A stretch of 64,000 nt of DNA from an uncultured Bacteroidales bacterium (GTDB taxonomy: Bacteria; Bacteroidota; Bacteroidia; Bacteroidales; FEN-979), in assembly GCA_903845055.1 (NCBI GenBank), contig CAIMWF010000044.1, forward strand, positions 27,419-91,418, read 5' to 3'. Positions 2,500-62,859 of this stretch are shown in pieces; position 1 is the first letter of the stretch; the number at the start of each line of letters is the position of its first letter. The translations under genes and the position numbers were made by a program. The notes under the pieces were generated by a model, which worked only from the letters and a program-made list of their open reading frames with translations, searched no databases and had not been told where the DNA came from.

Positions 2500-3810
2500 T
2501 CAGCTATCGGTCCGGCGTATCCCGGCGCCAAGGTTCCGAAGGCGGAGGTCGATCTCCTGGTAACCCCGGTCGATCTGCTCGATGTTATCGATGATACTCG
2601 TACCGTCGGCAGTGAGGGCGGCGATCAGGAGGGCGACACCGGCGCGGATATCGGGAGACGACATGCGGATTCCCCGCAGGTGGTGCTTGTGGTCGAGGCC
2701 GATGACGGTTGCGCGGTGCGGGTCGCAAAGGATGATCTTGGCTCCCATGTCGATGAGCTTGTCAACGAAGAACAGCCTGCTTTCAAACATCTTCTGGTGG
2801 ATCAGCACGCTTCCGTTCGCCTGTGTGGCGATCACCAGGACAATGCTGATCAGGTCGGGGGTAAAACCGGGCCAGGGGGCATCGGCTATGGTCATGATGG
2901 AACCGTCCATGAAGGTTTCAACTTCGTAGTGTTCCTGGGCGGGGATGTACAGGTCATCCTCACGTTTTTCCATCCGGATGCCCATGCGCCTGAATACATC
3001 CGGAATAAGACCCAGGTGCTCGTAGTTTACATTTTTGATGGTAATCTCCGACCCGGTCATGGCTGCAAGGCCGATGAAACTGCCGATCTCGATCATGTCG
3101 GACAAAAGGGTGTGTTCACATCCCCCAAGTTGTTTGACCCCGGTAATGGTAAGCAGGTTGGAGCCAATTCCACTGATGATGGCCCCCATGGAGACCAGCA
3201 TCCTGCATAATTGCGAAATATAGGGCTCACAGGCCGCGTTGAAAATGGTAGTGGTACCTTCGGCCATTACGGCAGCCATAACGATATTGGCGGTGCCGGT
3301 TACCGATGCCTCGTCAAGCAGCATGTAGGCCCCGGTGAGACGGGTGGCGGTTACACTGAAAAGCTGTTCCTGCGAGTGGTATTCAAAGGTGGCTCCCAGT
3401 TTCTGGAGCCCGATGAAATGGGTGTCGAGGCGCCGGCGGCCGATTTTATCACCACCGGGAATAAAAACGAATCCCCGTCCATAGCGCGCCAGCATGGGGC
3501 CCAGGATCATGATTGAACCGCGAAGGCTGCCGACTTTATCGCGAAAATCGCGGGTCTTCAGGTATTCGAAATCGATCTCCTTCGCCTTAAAAGTGCAGGA
3601 GGAATCTCCTGACCGGGTTACAATGACCCCGAGGGCTTCGAGAAGCTCGATTAGTTTGTTTACATCACGGATATTGGGGATGTTGTGAATGGTTACTTTT
3701 TCCGGAGTCAGGAGGCATGCGCAGATGACCTGTAAAGCCTCATTTTTGGCACCCTGGGGGGTTATTTCGCCGTGTAATTTCCTGCCTCCGGTGATTTCAA
3801 AGGAACTCAT
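2500..3810 (-). CDS. murA: UDP-N-acetylglucosamine 1-carboxyvinyltransferase
   Basis: 436-aa ORF. N-terminus MSSFEITGGRKLHGEITPQGAKNEAL and full-length EPSP-synthase/MurA-like fold signature. Confidence 0.95.
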   Translation of the reverse strand: MSSFEITGGRKLHGEITPQGAKNEALQVICACLLTPEKVTIHNIPNIRDVNKLIELLEALGVIVTRSGDSSCTFKAKEIDFEYLKTRDFRDKVGSLRGSIMILGPMLARYGRGFVFIPGGDKIGRRRLDTHFIGLQKLGATFEYHSQEQLFSVTATRLTGAYMLLDEASVTGTANIVMAAVMAEGTTTIFNAACEPYISQLCRMLVSMGAIISGIGSNLLTITGVKQLGGCEHTLLSDMIEIGSFIGLAAMTGSEITIKNVNYEHLGLIPDVFRRMGIRMEKREDDLYIPAQEHYEVETFMDGSIMTIADAPWPGFTPDLISIVLVIATQANGSVLIHQKMFESRLFFVDKLIDMGAKIILCDPHRATVIGLDHKHHLRGIRMSSPDIRAGVALLIAALTADGTSIIDNIEQIDRGYQEIDLRLRNLGAGIRRTDS

Positions 3811-4543: not shown

Positions 4544-4571
4544 TTACGAATTACGAATTACGAATTACGAT
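4544..4571. repeat. Heptamer tandem array (TTACGAA) x about 3.9
   Basis: Direct reading: ttacgaa ttacgaa ttacgaa ttacgat, in the DUF4290/helicase spacer. Confidence 0.9.
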
Positions 4572-4622
4572 TTATGGGTAAATGCCATGCCGGGCTGACC
4601 AATTATAACCGGCTCAGCCGTG

Positions 4623-26764: not shown

Positions 26765-27334
26765 ATGAGACACCAGAAGAAATTTAACCATTTAGGAAGA
26801 AAAAGTGCACACCGGAAGGCGATGCTGTCAAACATGGCTGCCTCTCTGATCATTCATAAAAGGATCCATACCACGGTTGCCAAAGCAAAAGCGCTTCGTG
26901 TCTATGTTGAACCCCTGATCACCAAATCGAAAGAGGACACCACCCATTCGCGCCGTACGGTGTTCAGTTATCTTCAGAGCAAGGAAGCGGTTACCGAACT
27001 GTTTCGTGAAATTTCGAAAAAGATCATGGACCGCCCCGGAGGTTATACCCGGATCCTGAAAACCGGTAACCGTTTTGGTGATAATGCCGAAATGTGCCTG
27101 ATCGAACTGGTGGATTACAATGAAGCCATGTTGTCGCCGGCATCGGATGGCAAAGCAAAGGCAACCCGCCGCAGAAGGTCCGGTGCCAAGAAAAGCACCG
27201 GAGATGCTGAAGAAACAAAAACTTCCGATAAGAAGAGCGAAGTTAAAAAAACGGCAAAAAAGGTTGAGGAGCCGGTAAAGGAAACGGTTCCGGATGTAAA
27301 ACCTGAGGCTGCCGATGAAACTGCCGAAGCCTGA
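26765..27334 (+). CDS. rplQ: 50S ribosomal protein L17 with a K/E-rich C-terminal extension
   Basis: 189 aa, [25 protein letters not shown]. About 65-aa low-complexity tail ([15 protein letters not shown]...[22 protein letters not shown]). Confidence 0.97.
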
Positions 27335-27342
27335 TCACGTGA

Positions 27343-28734
<1,392 letters not shown>

Positions 28735-28754
28735 AGGTTAACCAGGTCTGTTGG

Positions 28755-28882
28755 GTCATGGGATCAAGGGATGAAAGGGTGGGCGCGAAAGGGTAAAAGG
28801 GTAAGAAGGCGAGAAGGTGAGACGGTGACAAGGTGACAAGGTGACAAGGTGACAAGGTTAAAGAGGTAAAAGGGTTACAAAG
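28755..28882 (+). repeat. Purine-rich octamer array (rGGTrAsA units, with perfect (GGTGACAA)x4 at 28824-28855); left arm of an inverted pair
   Basis: Read directly: ...gggtaaaa gggtaaga aggcgaga aggtgaga cggtgaca aggtgaca aggtgaca aggtgaca aggttaaa... Confidence 0.9.
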
Positions 28883-28999
28883 TTTCGGGTTCGCGGGTGA
28901 CTGGGGTATCAGGTTGAGGAATCTTGTATTTTGTTAATAACTTTTACTTTTTTACCTGTTACTTTTTGCTGTTTTCATGATTAAGGAGAAACCCTTGGT

Positions 29000-29359
29000 A
29001 TGAAAACACATAAAGATCTGAATGCATGGAAAGAAAGCATCGAGCTTGTCGTTTCCGTCTATGAAATTGCGGGGAGATTTCCGAAACATGAGATGTTTTG
29101 CCTGACGCAGCAACTCAGGAGAGCCGCAGTTTCAGTTCCGTCCAATATCAGCGAAGGAGCAGCCCGTAACTATAAAAGGGAATTTATCAGGTTCCTGAGA
29201 ATCTCAATGGGCAGTCTCACAGAGGTTGAAACTCAAGTGATTATTTCCTGGAAATTGAGGTACATTGAAGAACCTGAGATGAAGGCTGTCATTGGAAAAA
29301 TCTACCTCATCCGTTCACAGATCGCAGGCCTCATTAAAAGTGTCGGAATAACAAAGTAA
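29000..29359 (+). CDS. Four-helix-bundle protein (23S rRNA intervening-sequence protein family, TIGR02436-like)
   Basis: 119 aa. LNAWKESIELVVSVYEIAGRFPKHEMFCLTQQLRRAAVSVPSNISEGAAR...FLRISMGSLTEVETQ is the family hallmark. Confidence 0.88.
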   Translation: MKTHKDLNAWKESIELVVSVYEIAGRFPKHEMFCLTQQLRRAAVSVPSNISEGAARNYKREFIRFLRISMGSLTEVETQVIISWKLRYIEEPEMKAVIGKIYLIRSQIAGLIKSVGITK

Positions 29360-29420
29360 AAAAAAGGACAGGTTGGGAAAATTCCACTTCGTTACATGTT
29401 TGGTATTATGTTTGTTAGGA

Positions 29421-29505
29421 TCACTACCTCATAACCTTGTTACCCTGTCACCATTTGACCTTATCACCTTGTCACCTTCTCACCTTTTTAACCCAGTCAC
29501 CTTTT
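29421..29505 (+). repeat. Pyrimidine-rich octamer array (TGTCACCT-type units); right arm, reverse complement of 28755-28882
   Basis: ccttgtta ccctgtca ccatttga ccttatca ccttgtca ccttctca ccttttta. The reverse complement AGGTGAGAAGGTGACAAGGTGATAAGG aligns with the left arm. Confidence 0.9.
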
Positions 29506-30256
29506 AATTTTTTATCTTCCCCAGCACCTCCACCAGCAACCCGGTAACGTGCTTTACATTTTCATTGAAGACCTTCAGTACATCCTCCCAGGTCACCGGA
29601 TCTTCGTCATGTTTCCATGAATCATAATCGGTAGAAAGGGCGATCGCCGCATAAGGGATCCCGGCCTCCATGGCCAGGCTTGCCTCAGGGGCGATGCTCA
29701 TGTTGATCACATCGGCCCCGAGCAGGCGAAACATCTTTGATTCGGCCCTGGTCGAAAACCGCGGTCCTTCGATGGTTACGATGGTGCCGGCAGGGTGAAA
29801 GGGGATGCCTGTTTCCCGGCAACCCGCTATCAGCATCTGGCGGAGTGGTTCGGTAAAGGGGTCAGCCATGGCCGTATGTGCCATCCTGCCGGGTTCAAAT
29901 GCGTCGTAAAAAGTGTTGACCCGGTGACGGGTGAAATCGATGAACTGGTCGGCGATGACCACATGTCCGCGACCGATCTCTTCCCGCAGGCTTCCGCAGG
30001 CGGTGGTTGCAAAAATCATGGTACATCCCAATTCCTTGAGAGCATGGATGTTCGCCCGGTTGTTCACCTGGGTGGGCGGGATGGCATGATCGCGGCCATG
30101 CCTTGAAAGGATAAAAACTTCGCAAGCACCAAGTTTTCCCTCGAAGAAAGTTGAACTGGGCTCCCCGTAAGGCGTGACTACCGCAATTTCCCGGGTTTCC
30201 TGAAAAATATTTAAGTTCTCGAGCCCTGAGCCTCCGATAATGCCGATTTTCGTCAT
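29504..30256 (-). CDS. mtnP: S-methyl-5'-thioadenosine phosphorylase
   Basis: MTKIGIIGGSGLENL...ILSRHGRDHAIPPTQVNNRANIHALKELGC...GADVINMSIAPEA. Start at the internal ATG (30256) of ORF 29504-30403. Confidence 0.9.
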   Translation of the reverse strand: MTKIGIIGGSGLENLNIFQETREIAVVTPYGEPSSTFFEGKLGACEVFILSRHGRDHAIPPTQVNNRANIHALKELGCTMIFATTACGSLREEIGRGHVVIADQFIDFTRHRVNTFYDAFEPGRMAHTAMADPFTEPLRQMLIAGCRETGIPFHPAGTIVTIEGPRFSTRAESKMFRLLGADVINMSIAPEASLAMEAGIPYAAIALSTDYDSWKHDEDPVTWEDVLKVFNENVKHVTGLLVEVLGKIKN

Positions 30257-30401
30257 GTTCGTTTTTTTTGCGAATATAATGCAAACTGACGGGAGGAGGA
30301 TCATGGAGCCGGAAAAATCAACCTTACCTGTTAAATATATGAATGAAGCATTCTGCATATGAATGAAAAGCTTAATTTTGCCGGACGTTAAGAAACACCA
30401 C

Positions 30402-32459
30402 ATGGAAATTCAATATATAGGGGAACATCTCTTCCCCGGAGAGATGGGAAAATTATTTGTCTGGCTGGGTTTTGCAACCGCGATCCTGGCGACCATTTTC
30501 TATTCGCTGTCATTTTATCGCAGGAACGACCGGCAATTATGGAAAACCATTGCACGCAGCCTTTACATGGTGCATACATTCTCGATGGTTGCCGTAGCGG
30601 TTATTCTCTATTTTCTCATTTTCAGGCATTACTTTGAATATGCTTATGTCTGGCAGTATTCATCCGTGGAATTGCCCATCAAATATATCATCTCGTGCTT
30701 CTGGGCAGGACAGGAGGGGAGTTTCCTCGTGTGGGCCCTCTGGCAGTCGCTGATCGGCCTGGTGTTGCTGCGTATCGCCAGGAACTGGGAAACACCCGTG
30801 ATGATGATTTTCTCATTGTCACAGATATTTGTCACCTCCATGTTGTTAGGGATCACCCTGCTTGGCACGAAGATCGGCGCAAGCCCCTTTGCATTGCTGC
30901 GTCATACGGTAGGCTCCCTGCAGGGTACCATCTTCGCCATGCCGAACTACCTGACGATGATCACCGATGGCAACGGGCTCAATCCCTTGCTTGAGAACAT
31001 CTGGATGACCATCCATCCCCCCATCCTGTTCCTCGGATATGCACTCGCCCTGGTTCCTTTTTCATATGCGATCGCCTCTTTTCTAAAAAAGGATTACCAC
31101 ACATGGATCGGGCGTGCCATGCCATGGACCCTGCTGGCATTGCTGACCCTCGGAGCAGGAATCCTGCTGGGAGGAGCCTGGGCCTATGTTTCGCTTACCT
31201 TTGGCGGCTTCTGGTCGTGGGATCCTGTCGAGAACTCTTCACTGGTGCCCTGGATGACCCTGGTGGCCGGCTTGCATTTCCTGCTGACAGCCCGGAAGCA
31301 GAATTTTGCCCTGTTTGCTGCCTACCTGCTGATCACCCTGTCGTATGTGCTGGTGCTTTATGCTAGTTTCCTCACCCGCAGCGGCGTACTGGCCGATACC
31401 TCGGCACACTCTTTTGGCGACAATGGCATGACCAAGCAACTGTTGATTTTCCTGCTCACCTTCCTCGTGATGATGGTGGTAATGATCGGGATCAATGTCA
31501 GGAAATTTCATATTCCAAGGAAAGACATCCTGCTTTCGCGTGAGTTCTGGATGTTCATCGGCGCCATCATCATGGTTCTTGCTGCGTTCCAGATTGTTTT
31601 TACCACTTCAATCCCGGTTTTCAACGGACTGTTCCATACAGACTTTGCCCCCCCGGTCGACCGTGTCGGATTCTACAATCGCTGGCAGATGCCTTACGCC
31701 CTGCTCATCGCCGGGTTTATCGCTTTCAGCCAGTTCCTGAATTACAATGAAAATGATGCAGGACATTTCCTGAAAAAAATGGGGATCCCCCTTGCCCTTG
31801 CGGTGCTCAGCTGCATGGCCATCGATTCATTCGGCATTGTAACCCGGATGAATATCCTGATGCTGGTCGGTTTTACGCTTTTTGCCCTTTATGCCTCGTT
31901 GTACAACGTGATCTTCAGGACCTCCAAACCGAGGAATACCGGGGCTATTACAGCGCATATCGGGTTCGTGGTATTTGTGCTCGGAACGGCACTGACCTTT
32001 TCCAACGCCCAGGTTATTTCAAAAAACACATCGAAGTTTGACCTCGGCGACAGTCAGTCGAATGCCGAGAACCTGGTCCTGACAAGGAATGACACCCTTT
32101 CCATGAACGGGTTCTATGTTTCATACGTAAGCAACCGCACCGAGGGAAATACAACGGTTTATTCGATTGATTTTATGACCAGGCAGCACGGTAAAATCAG
32201 GAAGGAGTTTACACTTTACCCTTCGGTCAATGTTCATCCGAGGATGGGGGCGGTATATAACCCGGATACACGTCACTTTCTGAACCGCGACTATTATGCC
32301 TACATTGCGAATGTATCGAAGGATCCCGACTACATCGTCGTCAAAGCCATCATGAACCCGTATATCAATATCCTGTGGCTGGGAGCGGTCATCATGACCA
32401 TCGGCTTTGCGATCGCATTCTTCAAACGTGCCCGTCACCGCTGGCAAAGCAATTCCTGA
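30402..32459 (+). CDS. Cytochrome c biogenesis / heme-handling membrane protein (CcmF/CcsA family)
   Basis: Polytopic membrane protein of about 685 aa with the tryptophan-rich motif WAYVSLTFGGFWSWDPVENSSLVPW. N-terminus MEIQYIGEHLFPGEMG. The maximal ORF starts at 30363. Confidence 0.82.
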   Translation: MEIQYIGEHLFPGEMGKLFVWLGFATAILATIFYSLSFYRRNDRQLWKTIARSLYMVHTFSMVAVAVILYFLIFRHYFEYAYVWQYSSVELPIKYIISCFWAGQEGSFLVWALWQSLIGLVLLRIARNWETPVMMIFSLSQIFVTSMLLGITLLGTKIGASPFALLRHTVGSLQGTIFAMPNYLTMITDGNGLNPLLENIWMTIHPPILFLGYALALVPFSYAIASFLKKDYHTWIGRAMPWTLLALLTLGAGILLGGAWAYVSLTFGGFWSWDPVENSSLVPWMTLVAGLHFLLTARKQNFALFAAYLLITLSYVLVLYASFLTRSGVLADTSAHSFGDNGMTKQLLIFLLTFLVMMVVMIGINVRKFHIPRKDILLSREFWMFIGAIIMVLAAFQIVFTTSIPVFNGLFHTDFAPPVDRVGFYNRWQMPYALLIAGFIAFSQFLNYNENDAGHFLKKMGIPLALAVLSCMAIDSFGIVTRMNILMLVGFTLFALYASLYNVIFRTSKPRNTGAITAHIGFVVFVLGTALTFSNAQVISKNTSKFDLGDSQSNAENLVLTRNDTLSMNGFYVSYVSNRTEGNTTVYSIDFMTRQHGKIRKEFTLYPSVNVHPRMGAVYNPDTRHFLNRDYYAYIANVSKDPDYIVVKAIMNPYINILWLGAVIMTIGFAIAFFKRARHRWQSNS

Positions 32460-45973: not shown

Positions 45974-46175
45974 AAAAAAATATCAAAACCCTGTCATTTT
46001 CGCCCCCGGTTTCGCTATATTTGTATTCCTGATTGCATTGAAATACGACAACCATGTCATTTTTTCAACATCTTGCCTGGGGGGTGTTTCCTATCCTCTC
46101 ACCCCGCGGATTTCCGCTGTCCAAAGCCGGTTTCCCTCTCCTGACCGGAGCCTTTGGAACCAGACTTCCCTATGT

Positions 46176-46220
46176 CTCCTCTAAGTCTCCCCTAAGACCT
46201 CTCTAAGTCTTCTCTAAGTG
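46176..46220. repeat. Four CTAAG-containing units with exact 11-bp phasing
   Basis: CTAAG at 46181, 46192, 46203 and 46214 (ctcctCTAAGtctcccCTAAGacctctCTAAGtcttctCTAAGtg). Confidence 0.8.
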
Positions 46221-49065: not shown

Positions 49066-52005
49066 ATGAGCGACAGGAGAACAAAATACATAGAGACGGT
49101 AAAAAAAACAACCCCGGGGCTGATCACCGGATTATCTTCGTTCCCCATCGTGGGCATTGGCGCCTCGGCAGGCGGGCTTGAAGCACTGGAACAGTTTTTC
49201 GGGAGCATGCCCAATGACAACGGCATGGCCTTCGTGGTCATTCAGCACCTCGACCCCAACCATGCAGGCATGATGCCCGAATTGCTGCAACGGATCACCC
49301 CCATGAAGGTATTCCAGGCAGCCGACCGGCTGAAGGTGAAACCCAATTGTGTATATGTGATCCCCCCTGGCAAAAGCCTCTCGATGCTCAATGGCGCCTT
49401 GCATTTGTTCGACCCGGTTCAGGCGCGGGGGCTGAGGCTGCCCGTTGATGTTTTCTTTCGTTCGCTGGCCGATGACCAGCAACACCGGAGCATAGGCATC
49501 ATCCTGTCGGGAATGGGCAGCGATGGCAGCCTCGGGCTGAAGGCCATCAAAGAAAAAAACGGGATGGTGCTGGTGCAGGAGCCGGCCACCGCAAAATTCG
49601 ATGGCATGCCGCGCAGCGCCATCGAAGCGGTCATTGCCGACATTATAGCGCCTGCCATGGAATTACCAGCGCGGCTGATCTCATTTCTTAACTTTATCCC
49701 GGCCGCGAAGCCAGACAGCGACATCGATGGGAAAACCACCGGCAATCTCGATAAAATCATCATCCTGATCCGTGACCAGACCGGCCACGACTTTTCAATG
49801 TACAAGAAAAACACCCTTTTCCGACGCATTGAAAGACGCATGGGGGTTCACCAGATTGACAAGATTAACACCTACGTACACTTTTTACAGGAGAATACAA
49901 GGGAGATCGACATTCTGTTCAAGGAGTTGCTCATCGGCGTTACAAACTTTTTTCGCGATGCCGCTGTTTGGGACTGCCTGAAAGAAAAAGTGATTCCCGC
50001 ACTTACCGACGAATTTCCTTATGGGCATGTGCTGCGCGCCTGGGTTACGGGATGTTCGACAGGCGAGGAGGCCTACAGCCTGGCCATTGTCTTTAAGGAG
50101 GCGCAGGAAAAAACTCAAAATCATAAAAACATAACGCTCCAGATATTTGCCACCGACCTCGACCCCGACGCCGTTGAGATTGCGCGCAGGGGCGTTTACT
50201 CCTCCGGTATTGCGGCGGATGTATCCCCCGAACGCCTGAACCATTTTTTTATGGCCGACATGGAAGGGTACCGCGTGAATACCTCCATCCGCGAAATGGT
50301 GGTGTTTGCCAGCCAGAATGTGATCAGGGATCCTCCCTTTACCAAGCTCGACATTCTTACCTGCCGCAATTTACTCATATACATGCAGCCGGATCTGCAG
50401 AAGAAGGTGATCGGGCTTTTTCATTACAGCATGAACCCCGGCGGATACATGCTGCTGGGCACTTCCGAAACCCTGGGGACCGAAAAAAGGGGTTTTGCGG
50501 AGGTTGATTCCAGGTTGAAGATTTTTAAACGCAGCATCTCGCCTGCGGAGAAGGTACTGGTTGATTTTCCAAGTTCTTTTTCACGGCCGAAACGTGTAAC
50601 AGCCGAAGAGACAAAACCGCCGGAGGATGTTGTCAACCTGCAGGCCGCGGCCGACCAGTTCATGCTTCGGCACTTTACCCCGGCCGGTGTGCTGGTGAAT
50701 GGCGAGGGTGACATTCTTTACATGACCGGCAACATCGGCCGGTACCTTGTTCCGGTTGCCGGGAAGGCTGATTATAACATCCATGTGATGGCACACGATG
50801 GTTTTCGCCAGGGTTTGCCCGGGGCACTGCGCAAAGCGATGCAAAACCCCGACCCGGTCGTACTGGCCAATGTGAAGGTCGGGACCAACGGGGGCACCCG
50901 CTTTGTTAATGTAACAGTTCAAAGGATTGAGAAACCCGGTTCAACGGCCGGTTTGGTTATGGTTGTATTTGCCGACGTGCCTGCCCCGGTAGAAAATGCA
51001 GCATTGAAACCGGTCAACAGGAAAAACAGTTCATCAGGGCGAATGAAAGAACTTGAAATTGAACTGCAAAGGAACCAGGAGGACATGCAGAGCACCCGCG
51101 AGGAGATGCAGACCGCCCAGGAGGAGTTGAAATCAACCAACGAGGAACTCCAGTCAACCAACGAAGAATTGCAATCGACCAACGAGGAACTCAACACCTC
51201 CAAGGAAGAGATGCAGAGCCTGAATGAAGAGCTGCAAACGGTGAATGTGGAGCTGCAGAGCAGGGTGACTGATTTTATCAGGGCAAACGACGACATGAAA
51301 AACCTGCTTAACAGCACGGAGGTTGCAACTTTGTTTCTCGACAGGGATATGAACGTCCGCAGGTTTACCGACCAGGTAACGAAAATTATCAAATTGCGGA
51401 ACTCCGATACCGGCAGACCCTTCACCGACCTGGTATCCGATTTGCAATATCCTGAAATCGTGAGCCATGTCACGGAGGTGATCCGAACCCTGGTATCGGT
51501 TGAAACTGCCATTCCAACCACCGACGGAAGGTGGTTTAATGTCCGGATTATGCCATACCGCACGGTTGATGACCACATTGACGGGCTGGTGATAACATTT
51601 TCGGATATCACCTTCGCCAAGATTGCCGAGAAAACGCTGTCCATCTCTGAAACCCGCTACCGCCGCATCTTTGAATCGGCAAAAGATGGAATTCTTATCC
51701 TGGATGCAGAATCCGGTAAAATCGTGGATGTGAATCCATTTCTCATCAAATTGCTGGGCTATTCAAAAGAACAGTTCCTTGAAAAAGCGATCTGGGAAAT
51801 AGGATTCCTTAACGACATCGTCGCCAACAAGGATATCTTTACGGAATTGCAGGAGAAGGAGATTGTCAGGTATGAAGATTTACCGCTTGAAACAGCGGAT
51901 GGCAGGAAGATCAATGTTGAGTTCGTCAGCAATGTTTACCTGGTCTCCGGCGTGAAGGTAATCCAATGCTTTATCCGCGAAAGCATTGGCCACTTCCCAT
52001 TATAA
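49066..52005 (+). CDS. CheB methylesterase - CheR methyltransferase fusion protein with PAS domains and a heptad coiled coil (no kinase or receiver module)
   Basis: 979 aa. CheB catalytic domain (IVGIGASAGGLEAL...ILSGMGSDGSLG...FDGMPRSAI), CheR domain (TNFFRD...WVTGCSTGEEAYSLA...IFATDLD), STNEELQ repeats, two C-terminal PAS domains. Confidence 0.9.
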   Translation: MSDRRTKYIETVKKTTPGLITGLSSFPIVGIGASAGGLEALEQFFGSMPNDNGMAFVVIQHLDPNHAGMMPELLQRITPMKVFQAADRLKVKPNCVYVIPPGKSLSMLNGALHLFDPVQARGLRLPVDVFFRSLADDQQHRSIGIILSGMGSDGSLGLKAIKEKNGMVLVQEPATAKFDGMPRSAIEAVIADIIAPAMELPARLISFLNFIPAAKPDSDIDGKTTGNLDKIIILIRDQTGHDFSMYKKNTLFRRIERRMGVHQIDKINTYVHFLQENTREIDILFKELLIGVTNFFRDAAVWDCLKEKVIPALTDEFPYGHVLRAWVTGCSTGEEAYSLAIVFKEAQEKTQNHKNITLQIFATDLDPDAVEIARRGVYSSGIAADVSPERLNHFFMADMEGYRVNTSIREMVVFASQNVIRDPPFTKLDILTCRNLLIYMQPDLQKKVIGLFHYSMNPGGYMLLGTSETLGTEKRGFAEVDSRLKIFKRSISPAEKVLVDFPSSFSRPKRVTAEETKPPEDVVNLQAAADQFMLRHFTPAGVLVNGEGDILYMTGNIGRYLVPVAGKADYNIHVMAHDGFRQGLPGALRKAMQNPDPVVLANVKVGTNGGTRFVNVTVQRIEKPGSTAGLVMVVFADVPAPVENAALKPVNRKNSSSGRMKELEIELQRNQEDMQSTREEMQTAQEELKSTNEELQSTNEELQSTNEELNTSKEEMQSLNEELQTVNVELQSRVTDFIRANDDMKNLLNSTEVATLFLDRDMNVRRFTDQVTKIIKLRNSDTGRPFTDLVSDLQYPEIVSHVTEVIRTLVSVETAIPTTDGRWFNVRIMPYRTVDDHIDGLVITFSDITFAKIAEKTLSISETRYRRIFESAKDGILILDAESGKIVDVNPFLIKLLGYSKEQFLEKAIWEIGFLNDIVANKDIFTELQEKEIVRYEDLPLETADGRKINVEFVSNVYLVSGVKVIQCFIRESIGHFPL

Positions 52006-58945: not shown

Positions 58946-58973
58946 CTATTGCCTATTGCCTACTGCCTGTTGC
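58946..58973. repeat. Heptamer tandem array (CTATTGC CTATTGC CTACTGC CTGTTGC)
   Basis: Read directly. Overlaps the last codons and stop of the 58953-59354 gene. Confidence 0.9.
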
Positions 58974-59354
58974 CTTTTTTAAAGTCCGTATGATCCATGC
59001 CGCCACAAACGATTCGAACAAACTCAACGGCACGGCGAACCACAGGAGCCCGAAGGGAAGCACAGCAAGGTTTCCGAGGGTAACCCACATCAGCACGAAT
59101 GCCACGAACCACGACAGGAAGGTGGTTTGCAGTAAATTGAACTTCCCGGCAATGAAATAGATGGCAGTGGCGAACAGTAGCGACCAGAGGCCCCACACCG
59201 CCCCGTTGACCGGCTGGGAGGGAAACTGGAGGCCCAGCGTCTGGTAATGGCTCGTCCAGTATGATTTCAGCAGGAATTCGTTCCGAAAAAATTCAGAGAT
59301 GCTGATCCATACCGTCGCTGCCAGGATCGCTAGGATTCCTTTGTGTGTTTTCAT
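58953..59354 (-). CDS. Hypothetical four-TM membrane protein
   Basis: Internal start MKTHKGILAILAATVWISI. Hydrophobic throughout. Immediately downstream of the rhomboid gene. The maximal ORF is 58953-59390. Confidence 0.6.
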   Translation of the reverse strand: MKTHKGILAILAATVWISISEFFRNEFLLKSYWTSHYQTLGLQFPSQPVNGAVWGLWSLLFATAIYFIAGKFNLLQTTFLSWFVAFVLMWVTLGNLAVLPFGLLWFAVPLSLFESFVAAWIIRTLKKATGSRQ

Positions 59355-62757: not shown

Positions 62758-62834
62758 AACGGGTATTACAAATTCATTATTGGTGAGCCAAAGCTAAACA
62801 AAATTCCTGTCTGGCAGTCAGCAGGTTGAAAATA

Positions 62835-62859
62835 ATTAAAAATTAAAAATTAAAAATTA
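62835..62859. repeat. Heptamer tandem array (ATTAAAA) x about 3.6
   Basis: Read directly: attaaaa attaaaa attaaaa atta. Confidence 0.85.

What the first reader, a model, noticed from the sequence alone, without database searches (positions are those of the whole stretch)
28755..29505. IVS-like cassette: a four-helix-bundle gene bracketed by inverted octamer arrays between eno and mtnP
A 119-aa protein of the 23S-rRNA-intervening-sequence family (29000-29359) is flanked by a purine-rich array of 8-nt units on the left, with perfect (GGTGACAA)x4 at 28824-28855. On the right is the reverse-complement pyrimidine-rich array (29421-29505). The arms could pair into a stem of more than 60 nt enclosing the ORF. 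In Leptospira, Coxiella and others, homologous ORFs sit inside rRNA intervening sequences whose flanking stem is cut by RNase III. Here the same architecture lies outside rRNA, directly downstream of enolase. That suggests either a mobile or formerly mobile cassette, or an RNase III-processed 3' UTR element.
Basis: partly seen in the sequence, partly recalled or inferred. Interest (0 to 1): 0.55.

Follow-up and report, generated by a model that had tools for sequence, protein, structure and literature searches.

The report
IVS-type gene cassette with array arms
A small four-helix-bundle gene of the family first found inside ribosomal-RNA intervening sequences sits here between enolase and mtnP, bracketed by inverted arrays of an 8-base unit. 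The same gene-plus-inverted-array layout recurs in about 70% of 177 relatives from many phyla, so it looks like a widespread dispersed cassette rather than a local oddity.

Summary
Window 29000-29359 (+) encodes a 119-aa PF05635/TIGR02436 protein. It is flanked by a G/purine-rich octamer array (28753-28885, perfect GGTGACAA x4) and its reverse complement (29421-29507). The two arrays are predicted to pair into a 79-bp stem.

This layout is a family-wide rule. Short-period arrays (mostly 7 nt, sometimes 8-9) lie on both sides of 126 of 177 homologous genes drawn from genomes, metagenomes and viral contigs. Each copy's arms match each other but not the arms of other copies. Arm sequence co-diverges with the ORF. 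ORFs 80-93% identical lie in unrelated contexts. The G-rich strand of each arm points inward in 83 of 87 cases.

At the eno/mtnP junction, seven relatives lack the ORF. Five of them still carry the inverted octamer arrays as an empty hairpin, and two carry an ordinary GC hairpin.

Best reading: a dispersed, selfish IVS-type cassette whose arms work by pairing, probably as an RNase III-cleavable RNA duplex as shown for rRNA-borne relatives. ORF-less hairpins would be its remnants. RNase III cleavage and the mode of mobility are inferred, not shown. I found no paper describing this architecture outside rRNA.

The parts
27391..28734 (+). Enolase gene, the upstream co-oriented neighbour. The left array begins within about 20 nt of its stop codon.
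   Evidence: Pfam Enolase_N and Enolase_C, E 5e-60 and 3e-134. The rpoA-rplQ-eno synteny is kept in relatives.
28753..28885 (+). Left arm: a G/purine-rich array of about 16 octamer units (GGTGACAA family), perfect four times at 28824-28855.
   Evidence: TRF period 8. Repeat family D2. Pattern search gives 9 matches against 0.48 expected. Purines 76%.
28886..28999 (+). Leader between the left arm and the ATG. It contains boxes conserved among the closest cassettes: TTTTGTTAATAAC (28929-28941), TACTTTTTG (28960-28968) and TTTTCATGATTAAGGAG (28973-28988). The last includes a Shine-Dalgarno AGGAG at 28984-28988. It may hold the cassette's own promoter or 5' UTR.
   Evidence: Alignment with the leaders of L135, L099, L093, L100, L094 and L098. 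No sigma-70-type promoter was found by the scan, which does not cover Bacteroidota promoters.
29000..29359 (+). Intact 119-aa four-helix-bundle protein gene (PF05635 / TIGR02436, the 'S23p' or IVS protein family).
   Evidence: Pfam E 5.9e-34. NCBIfam TIGR02436 114.4 bits. PDB 2GSC (XCC0516) E 7.4e-25. It carries all 19 columns that are invariant in a 33-sequence alignment.
29360..29420 (+). Short 3' spacer between the stop codon and the right arm.
   Evidence: Sequence. In the family the median distance from stop to right arm is 18 nt.
29421..29507 (+). Right arm: a C/pyrimidine-rich octamer array (TTGTCACC family), the reverse complement of the left arm. It abuts and overlaps the stop codon of the convergent mtnP gene.
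   Evidence: TRF period 8/16/32. Inverted repeats I1-I10. Purines 26%.
28760..29518 (+). Predicted long-range duplex: 28760-28867 pairs with 29426-29518 (79 bp), enclosing the leader and ORF.
   Evidence: RNA MFE -254.6 kcal/mol, z -5.4. Helix list and ensemble pairing. The reverse strand folds almost as well (-101 against -108 kcal/mol for the arms alone).
29504..30256 (-). mtnP (S-methyl-5'-thioadenosine phosphorylase), the convergent downstream neighbour. The ORF as listed runs to 30403.
   Evidence: TIGR01694 284.4 bits against a cut-off of 274.85. Pfam PNP_UDP_1.

Best explanation
This is a member of a widespread, dispersed ('selfish') cassette class. The class is the non-rRNA form of the ORF-bearing 23S rRNA intervening sequence.

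A cassette consists of a PF05635 four-helix-bundle gene with a short leader, bracketed by two inverted arrays of a 7-8-nt unit. The arms act through their complementarity, not through a fixed sequence.

In any transcript that crosses the cassette, the G-rich arm is made first and the C-rich arm pairs with it as soon as it is made. This gives a 30-80-bp duplex. By analogy with rRNA-borne relatives, RNase III cuts that duplex, releasing the ORF RNA from the host transcript and making the insertion tolerable inside operons, rRNA or gene ends.

Because the stem is built from tandem units, it tolerates slippage by pairing in other registers, and its sequence turns over quickly. When the ORF decays or is deleted, the arms remain as an ORF-less hairpin. 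That is what five relatives carry at the same eno/mtnP junction, where it probably serves as a two-way transcript-end hairpin.

Shown here: the architecture, copy-specific complementarity, co-divergence of arms with the ORF, dispersal, polarity, and the presence/absence pattern.

Inferred: RNA-level pairing in vivo, RNase III cleavage, the order of events at this locus, and what the protein does (probably a nucleic-acid-binding pentamer like XCC0516 or Avd).
For: 1. Family-wide architecture. Arrays of period 5-10 lie on both sides in 57/81 genome loci, 45/63 metagenome loci and 24/33 viral-contig loci. Period 7 dominates (107 of 133 arrays).
2. Complementarity is copy-specific. Among 122 non-redundant loci, the median own-arm score is 34 against 17 for cross-locus pairs. 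91/122 exceed the cross-locus 95th percentile, MWU p 1.5e-50.
3. Two copies in one genome carry different matched arms: L008, L036 and L020.
4. Arms co-diverge with the ORF. Arms of different cassettes cross-pair in 90-95% of pairs with at least 75% ORF identity, in 28% at 60-75%, and in about 5% below 50%. The closest ORF homologs, at other genomic sites, carry the same GGTGACAA-type octamers.
5. Dispersal. 61 ORF pairs at least 70% identical lie in unrelated flanks. For L107/L114 (92.6% aa), homology ends at the outer edge of the right array and within the leader on the upstream side.
6. Strand polarity. The G-rich strand points inward in 83 cases against 4, p 3e-20. A double-stranded DNA site needs no such polarity. 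Polarity does make sense if the arms are transcribed, because it avoids a long-lived unpaired C-rich RNA.
7. Read-through context. The upstream gene is co-oriented in 81/96 loci. The median distance from upstream stop to ATG is 71 nt, and from left arm to ATG 43 nt, leaving no room for a promoter in most cassettes.
8. Decay intermediates exist (L099, L135), and so do ORF-less arrays at the orthologous junction.
9. Experimental precedent. The Coxiella IVS stem formed by the terminal inverted repeats is cut by RNase III. The cut lies at the first of the tandem heptamers (GACAGAT) upstream of S23p, and the repeat number varies between strains (PMC4990558).
10. The window RNA folds with the arms paired, z -5.4.
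Against: - No RNA data exist for this organism.
- Arm mismatches show no bias toward G-U-compatible changes on the sense strand (96 against 101). Selection on one particular RNA strand is therefore not visible, and DNA-level homogenisation of the arms would fit equally well.
- The window's clade has a conserved 110-nt leader that may contain its own promoter. If so, the ORF's own mRNA would lack the left arm.
- The longest uninterrupted helix in the window is 13 bp.
- About 25-30% of family members have no detectable arms (for example L001 and L031). One locus (L003) has direct, not inverted, arrays.
- At this locus the arms exist without the ORF in relatives, so the ORF may have entered a pre-existing hairpin.
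- No transposase, target-site duplication or other mobility mechanism was found.
Confidence: 0.5

Rival explanations
1. The arms work at the DNA level. In this reading they are recombination or transposition ends, for instance homology arms that let the ORF spread by gene conversion into other array hairpins of the same unit family, or hairpin or cruciform sites used by a host enzyme. Any RNA duplex would be incidental.
For: - There is no sense-strand wobble bias in arm mismatches.
- The cassette is dispersed, and on the downstream side homology ends at the outer edge of the array.
- Arrays of the same unit family occur at several sites in related genomes, both filled and empty.
- Flanks are rearranged or inverted next to arrays (L113/L120, L107/L114).
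- No transposase is needed for recombination-based spread.
Against: - Arm sequence is not conserved between cassettes, even within one genome, which argues against a sequence-specific transposase.
- The strong inward G-rich polarity (83:4) has no obvious double-stranded-DNA rationale.
- rRNA-borne relatives are demonstrably processed at the RNA level (PMC4990558).
- No target-site duplication was found. The only candidate is a weak 12-nt direct repeat at 28910 and 29369, 83% identical.
Confidence: 0.2
2. The octamer hairpin is an ordinary, host-owned transcript-end structure between the convergent eno and mtnP genes that grew by replication slippage. The four-helix-bundle gene merely landed in its loop, so arms and ORF are unrelated.
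For: - Five of seven relatives have the array hairpin at this junction without any ORF, and two have a classical 20-bp GC hairpin at the same place.
- No other terminator-like structure exists in the spacer.
- The arrays start right after the eno stop and reach the mtnP stop.
Against: - It does not explain why about 71% of 177 family members in many phyla sit between their own inverted arrays.
- It does not explain why two copies in one genome have different matched arms.
- It does not explain why arm units track ORF identity.
- Most cassettes lie between co-directional genes, not at convergent gene ends (67/96 against 13/96).
- Decay intermediates link filled and empty forms.
Confidence: 0.15
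3. The arrays are regulatory simple-sequence repeats. They might be phase-variable spacers, G-quadruplex elements or protein-binding heptamer tracts controlling the adjacent gene, with the inverted arrangement secondary.
For: - Heptamer copy number varies between Coxiella strains.
- G-rich heptamer arrays in Xanthomonas and Nostoc can form G4 structures, and one overlaps the start of XCC0516.
- Single unpaired arrays also occur in this window.
Against: - Most units, including GGTGACAA, lack the G-runs needed for G4.
- The paired, complementary arrangement on both sides of the ORF is the statistically dominant feature.
- The arrays lie outside the reading frame, and in many loci downstream of the gene.
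Confidence: 0.05

Closest known systems
ORF-bearing 23S rRNA intervening sequences (Leptospira, Coxiella burnetii, Brucella, Haemophilus), excised by RNase III
   Same: - The ORF family is the same (PF05635, 'S23p').
- The ORF is enclosed by terminal inverted repeats that form a long stem.
- In Coxiella the 5' arm region consists of tandem heptamers (GACAGAT) whose number varies between strains, and RNase III cuts at the first repeat (PMC4990558).
- The ORF is prone to decay.
   Different: - The location is different. This one lies between two protein-coding genes, not in helix 25 or 45 of 23S rRNA. None of the roughly 200 family loci (L001-L080, L093-L175, L183-L223) among the 223 loci fetched carries rRNA: the Rfam scan covered 20 of them and the rRNA-motif scan loci L001-L172.
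- The arms are much longer (about 130 and 87 nt) and are octamer arrays.
- The ORF is intact and has a strong Shine-Dalgarno sequence.
- RNase III processing has not been tested.
Intergenic heptamer tandem repeats: cyanobacterial STRR, Xanthomonas GGGAATC, Beggiatoaceae TAACTGA
   Same: - They are short-period (7-nt), lineage-specific tandem arrays in intergenic DNA.
- They are often G-rich on one strand.
- They often occur as convergent (inverted) pairs, 70-75 pairs in Xanthomonas (PMC4692102).
- One GGGAATC array lies between bccP and XCC0516, the crystallised family member.
- Nostoc and Calothrix plasmid copies of the gene are framed by STRR-like heptamers.
   Different: - Those papers treat the arrays as free-standing repeats and propose G4, translational control or genome plasticity. 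They do not connect them with PF05635 genes.
- Here the arrays are the two arms of a gene cassette, and the unit is 8 nt.
Avd, the accessory protein of diversity-generating retroelements
   Same: Avd is a distant homolog with the same four-helix-bundle fold family (NF033474 hit, E 6.7e-5). Pentameric, basic, nucleic-acid- and RT-binding protein (PMC10053308; my own knowledge of Alayyoubi et al. 2013).
   Different: - The score of 23.1 bits is far below the 80-bit cut-off.
- There is no reverse transcriptase and no template or variable repeat next to the gene. The neighbours are eno and mtnP.
MITEs, REP/BIME elements and other small hairpin-forming dispersed repeats
   Same: - They are dispersed intergenic inverted repeats.
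- Non-coding derivatives outnumber coding copies.
- They sit at gene ends and can act as transcript-end hairpins.
   Different: - There are no conserved terminal sequences, no target-site duplication and no transposase.
- The arms are tandem arrays whose sequence differs between copies.

Membership tests
PF05635 / TIGR02436 four-helix-bundle (IVS, 'S23p') protein family | Profile match above the curated cut-off over the full domain | tested here: met
   Pfam 116.9 bits against 33.8, covering residues 5-108 of 119. TIGR02436 114.4 bits against 24.
PF05635 / TIGR02436 four-helix-bundle (IVS, 'S23p') protein family | Sequence relationship to a solved four-helix-bundle member | tested here: met
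   PDB 2GSC (X. campestris XCC0516), E 7.4e-25, residues 2-113. The fold and pentamer state of this particular protein were not modelled.
23S rRNA intervening sequence (IVS) | Located inside the 23S rRNA gene (helix 25 or 45) | tested here: not met
   It lies between enolase and mtnP. No Rfam family is found in 27000-31000.
23S rRNA intervening sequence (IVS) | Terminal inverted repeats forming a long stem that encloses the element | tested here: met
   73-nt arms, 78% complementary. A 79-bp stem in the MFE, z -5.4.
23S rRNA intervening sequence (IVS) | Excision from the precursor RNA by RNase III | not testable with these tools
   Needs RNA end mapping or an in vitro cleavage assay. Shown only for Coxiella and other rRNA IVSs (PMC4990558).
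Diversity-generating retroelement (Avd) | Avd equivalog score, plus an adjacent reverse transcriptase and template/variable repeats | tested here: not met
   NF033474 scores 23.1 bits against a cut-off of 80. The neighbours are eno and mtnP. There are no further repeats near the locus.
Transposon or MITE | Conserved terminal inverted repeats, a target-site duplication, and a transposase in cis or in trans | tested here: not met
   Arms differ between copies. There is no convincing direct repeat at the borders. No transposase-like ORF lies in the cassette. A trans-acting enzyme cannot be excluded.
Intrinsic (Rho-independent) terminator | A short GC-rich stem-loop followed by a T-run | tested here: not met
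   The scan finds none in 28600-29650. Relatives L085 and L087 do have such a hairpin at this junction.
Proposed class: PF05635 gene framed by inverted short-period arrays | Arrays of period 7-9 on both sides, mutually reverse-complementary, with the G-rich strand pointing inward | tested here: met
   Window: period 8, unit AAGGTGAC on both sides after reverse complementing. The left arm is G/purine-rich. For the family: 126/177 loci, and polarity 83:4.

The most novel reading that the evidence does not exclude
Inverted heptamer or octamer arrays plus a small cargo gene would form a cross-phylum class of transposase-less mobile cassettes. The cargo is PF05635, and in some cellular genomes possibly the GxxExxY PD-(D/E)XK family. 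These cassettes would be made harmless by RNA-level excision or insulation. They would spread, and be lost, by recombination between arrays of the same unit family. Their ORF-less remnants would be the source of the long-unexplained lineage-specific intergenic heptamer repeats (cyanobacterial STRR, Xanthomonas GGGAATC and others) and of rRNA IVSs. The encoded pentameric protein may act on the arrays.
Probability: 0.3. Interest if true: 0.8.

Novelty: new variant of a known kind. Interest (0 to 1): 0.62.

Why it matters
IVSs with an 'S23p' ORF have been known since the 1990s, and lineage-specific heptamer repeats since 1990, but both remain unexplained and have been treated separately.

The data here tie them together. 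The very common 'four helix bundle protein' genes of bacteria and archaea are, in most cases, the cargo of a hairpin cassette. The arms of that cassette are fast-evolving tandem arrays kept complementary within each copy.

This gives testable predictions:
- rnc-dependent cleavage in the arms
- array-guided gain and loss of the ORF
- binding of the protein to the arrays

It also matters for annotation. Gene callers run into the arrays, and assemblies break at them. It could further explain a share of operon-internal processing sites and intergenic hairpins.

Tried and rejected
- Rfam. Nothing credible at E no greater than 1 in 27000-31000: three weak sub-threshold hits (E 0.04-0.97) lie in the rplQ 3' end/rplQ-eno spacer and in the enolase gene, none in the cassette. 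Nothing at gathering score in 20 short homolog contigs.
- rRNA context. A scan for conserved 16S and 23S motifs in 172 loci gave only two isolated chance hits.
- Sigma-70 promoter and intrinsic terminator scan: none. It is uninformative for Bacteroidota promoters.
- G-U wobble asymmetry as a test of which RNA strand is selected: no bias, 96 against 101.
- Target-site duplication: only a weak 12-nt direct repeat (28910 and 29369, 83% identical), judged to be chance.
- G-quadruplex reading: rejected as a general explanation because most units lack G-runs.
- Chance or low complexity: rejected.
- 'Species-wide intergenic filler': rejected for this genome, because the unit occurs nowhere else in 64 kb.
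- Phage collection (INPHARED): no homolog.
- GxxExxY as a general second cargo: holds in 3 of 3 cellular loci but in 0 of 7 viral-contig loci, so it is kept only as a side note.
- Literature: eight full-text searches found no paper linking PF05635 or 'S23p' genes outside rRNA to flanking tandem arrays. Subscription-only papers, such as Ralph & McClelland 1993 and Mazel 1990, could not be read.
- Not run: structure prediction and the large representative-protein search. Family assignment was already unambiguous.
Full report
**1. What is in the window**

Between enolase (27391-28734, +) and a convergent S-methyl-5'-thioadenosine phosphorylase gene (29504-30256, -) lies a 769-nt spacer. It contains one intact 119-aa ORF at 29000-29359 (+). 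This ORF matches PF05635 '23S rRNA-intervening sequence protein' (E 5.9e-34) and TIGR02436 'four helix bundle protein'. Its closest solved structure is X. campestris XCC0516, PDB 2GSC (E 7e-25).

To the left of the ORF is a G/purine-rich array in an 8-nt register, about 28753-28885, with GGTGACAA perfect four times at 28824-28855. To the right is the reverse-complement array at 29421-29507, which ends on the mtnP stop codon.

As RNA, 28760-28867 pairs with 29426-29518 through 79 bp. The fold z-score is -5.4 and the longest perfect helix is 13 bp. The opposite strand folds nearly as well.

This is the only long inverted repeat, the only GGTGACAA array and the only copy of the gene in the 64-kb window. 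No Rfam family, sigma-70-type promoter or intrinsic terminator is detected in the spacer.

**2. Is the arrangement particular to this locus?**

No. I fetched 80 homologous loci from species-representative genomes, 80 from metagenomes and 41 from viral contigs.

| Set | Loci with period 5-10 arrays on both sides of the gene |
|---|---|
| Genomes (including the window) | 57 of 81 |
| Metagenomes | 45 of 63 |
| Viral contigs | 24 of 33 |
| Total | 126 of 177 |

Period 7 dominates (107 of 133 arrays), followed by 8 and 9. The downstream unit is normally the reverse complement of the upstream unit.

Hosts include Bacteroidota, Cyanobacteria, Proteobacteria, Acidobacteriota, Firmicutes, Chloroflexota, Planctomycetota and two archaeal MAGs. 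Annotated cyanobacterial plasmid copies show the same pattern with STRR-like heptamers.

Control windows in the same loci, and cross-locus pairings, score far lower. Among 122 non-redundant loci, the median own-arm score is 34 against 17. 91 of 122 exceed the cross-locus 95th percentile (Mann-Whitney p 1.5e-50).

None of the family loci is in an rRNA operon.

**3. Properties of the arms**

- *Copy-specific.* Unit sequences differ completely between genomes, and also between two copies a few kb apart in one genome. In L008 the ORFs are 36% identical and the arms are GAGACCT against GGGACAAG. In L036 the ORFs are 47% identical and the arms are GGGGATC against AGAGGCT. In L020 the ORFs are 66% identical and the units differ by one base.
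- *Co-divergence with the ORF.* Arms of different cassettes still cross-pair in 90-95% of pairs whose ORFs are at least 75% identical. This falls to 28% at 60-75% identity and to about 5% below 50%. The window's closest ORF homologs (57-76% aa; L093, L135, L100, L099, L098, L094) lie at other genomic sites. They carry octamer arrays of the same GGTGACAA/GGTAACAA family and a conserved leader. The arms therefore belong to the cassette, and their sequence turns over faster than the protein while left-right complementarity is retained.
- *Polarity.* The G-rich strand runs 5' to 3' toward the interior in 83 cassettes against 4 (p 3e-20). Because the arms are inverted, this holds for both transcription directions.
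- *No wobble bias.* Mismatches between arms show no excess of changes that would be G-U in the sense RNA (96 against 101).

**4. Genomic setting and dispersal**

In 96 loci with enough flank, the upstream gene is co-oriented in 81, and both neighbours are co-oriented in 67. The median distance from the upstream stop to the ATG is 71 nt. The left arm ends a median of 43 nt before the ATG, and the right arm starts a median of 18 nt after the stop.

Most cassettes are therefore wedged into co-directional gene strings with no room for a promoter. They must be transcribed by read-through, with both arms in one RNA.

Sixty-one ORF pairs at least 70% identical have unrelated flanks. For L107/L114 (92.6% aa), DNA homology runs from the leader through the right array and stops at that array's outer edge. 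Decay intermediates occur: L099 is truncated and fused to the right array, and L135 is frameshifted.

**5. The eno/mtnP junction in relatives**

Seven relatives whose MTAP is 80-84% identical keep the rpoA-rplQ-eno/mtnP synteny, and none has the ORF.

Five of them (L081/82, L083, L084, L089, L091/92) have spacers of 59-213 nt. These spacers consist almost entirely of the same kind of inverted octamer arrays (GGTAACAA, GGTGAYAA or GCGGACAR on the left, YTGTTACC on the right), which fold into an ORF-less hairpin.

Two relatives (L085, L087/88) instead have a classical 20-bp GC hairpin with scraps of octamer units nearby. Other arrays of the same unit family occur at further intergenic sites in these relatives.

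Hence the arms at this site are older than, or at least separable from, the ORF. One possibility is that an ancestral cassette lost its ORF repeatedly, which fits the decay intermediates. The other is that the ORF entered an existing array hairpin, for example by recombination through the arrays. The data do not decide between these.

**6. How it most likely works**

The experimental anchor is the rRNA-borne form. In Coxiella burnetii the IVS ends form a 28-bp stem that RNase III cuts. The cut lies at the first of several tandem GACAGAT heptamers just upstream of the S23p ORF. The heptamer number varies between strains, and the ORF is decaying (PMC4990558).

The cassettes described here have the same parts outside rRNA. 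I therefore favour an RNA-level role for the arms. A transcript crossing the cassette forms a long duplex that RNase III can cut, uncoupling the selfish ORF from the host message.

The inward G-rich polarity fits this reading. The arm made first is C-poor and so a poor Rho loading site. The C-rich arm is sequestered as soon as it appears. A tandem-array stem also remains a long duplex after unit slippage. These last points are inference.

A DNA-level role is not excluded and may coexist with the RNA-level one. Candidates are homology arms for gain and loss of the ORF, or hairpin substrates for a host enzyme. The absence of wobble bias and the array-associated rearrangements favour it.

The window's clade has a conserved leader and a strong AGGAG 10 nt before the ATG. 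The ORF is probably expressed and may have its own promoter.

**7. Comparison with what is known**

By membership, the protein is a clear PF05635/TIGR02436 member. The element is not an IVS in the strict sense, because it is not in 23S rRNA. It is not a DGR, because the Avd score is below cut-off and there is no RT. It is not a MITE or transposon, because it has no conserved ends, no target-site duplication and no transposase. It is not an intrinsic terminator.

Papers on heptamer arrays do not connect them with this gene family. These cover Xanthomonas GGGAATC with 70-75 convergent pairs, Nostoc GGGGAYT, and Beggiatoaceae TAACTGA. Yet the supplementary table of PMC4692102 lists a GGGAATC array between bccP and XCC0516 that overlaps the XCC0516 start codon.

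Eight full-text searches found no description of the architecture outside rRNA. Older subscription papers could not be checked.

**8. Verdict**

The finding is real.

The more interesting result is the generalisation. Most four-helix-bundle IVS-family genes in bacteria and archaea are framed by copy-specific inverted heptamer or octamer arrays that co-evolve with the gene, and ORF-less array hairpins persist at orthologous sites.

I rate it a new variant of a known kind. Interest is 0.62, and confidence in the RNase III-type pairing mechanism is 0.5.

Noticed in passing
L024:1156-1554, L127:847-1194, L147:4247-4540; also L176-L182: Small GxxExxY / PDDEXK_3 (PF13366, TIGR04256) genes in three cellular loci are also bracketed by inverted short-period arrays (CCACGAA-type 9-10-mers; arm scores 57, 37 and 32). 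Seven homologs on IMG/VR viral contigs are not (scores 15-21). This may be a second cargo for the same kind of cassette.
   Followed up: partly
L081:4760-4940, L083:4779-4936, L084:4757-4855, L089:3251-3304, L091:2579-2624: ORF-less inverted octamer-array hairpins fill the eno/mtnP spacer of relatives. In L081/L082 the mtnP-sense RNA folds much better than the eno-sense RNA (-88 against -50 kcal/mol), because the mismatches become G-U pairs. In L083 the reverse holds.
   Followed up: partly
L081:4001-4792 (P0124, 263 aa) and similar gene calls in L084, L089, L091: mtnP gene calls in relatives run into the octamer array, giving C-terminal extensions of about 10-13 residues. This is probably an annotation artefact of the repeats, or the array has expanded into the gene end.
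   Followed up: no
L003:2797-2955 and 3364-3512: In Faecalibacter rhinopitheci the four-helix-bundle gene is flanked by about 22 copies of ACTAGGG on each side in direct, not inverted, orientation. This is an exception to the rule.
   Followed up: no
L113:2864-3548 against L120:1722-2385; L107:2120-2739 against L114:2-618: Between closely related cassettes, the flank on the right of one equals the reverse complement of the flank on the left of the other. This suggests inversions or rearrangements with breakpoints at the arrays.
   Followed up: no
L173:1495-1863 (Nostoc edaphicum plasmid pNe_5): A cassette with GTAGGGA/TCCCTAC arms sits antisense between the two ribonucleotide reductase subunit genes. 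L174 (N. punctiforme) and L175 (Calothrix) show the same layout with other STRR-like heptamers.
   Followed up: partly
X. campestris XCC0516 (PDB 2GSC), from PMC4692102 supplementary file 2: The crystallised family member has a GGGAATC heptamer array 6 nt after bccP that overlaps its own start codon. It thus appears to be inserted after accB, and the paper does not comment on this.
   Followed up: partly
window 28984-28988: A strong Shine-Dalgarno AGGAG lies 10 nt upstream of the ATG of the cassette ORF. From my own knowledge this is unusual for Bacteroidota genes, and it hints at foreign origin or special translation control.
   Followed up: no
window 4544-4574, 58946-58975, 62834-62859, 46170-46219: Other short intergenic tandem arrays occur without an inverted partner: TTACGAA x4.4, CTATTGC x4.3, AATTAAA x3.7 and an 11-mer x4.5. 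The CTATTGC unit also forms arrays in the unrelated locus L071 (Chitinophaga MAG).
   Followed up: partly
L020:725-959; L012:1297-1407; L097:355-800; L093:4625-4757: Further ORF-less inverted array pairs and large one-sided arrays of the local unit family lie within a few kb of four-helix-bundle cassettes.
   Followed up: no
window 51065-51261: A 21/42-nt tandem repeat (2-4 copies, 70-78% matches) lies elsewhere in the window. It is probably a coding repeat and was not examined.
   Followed up: no
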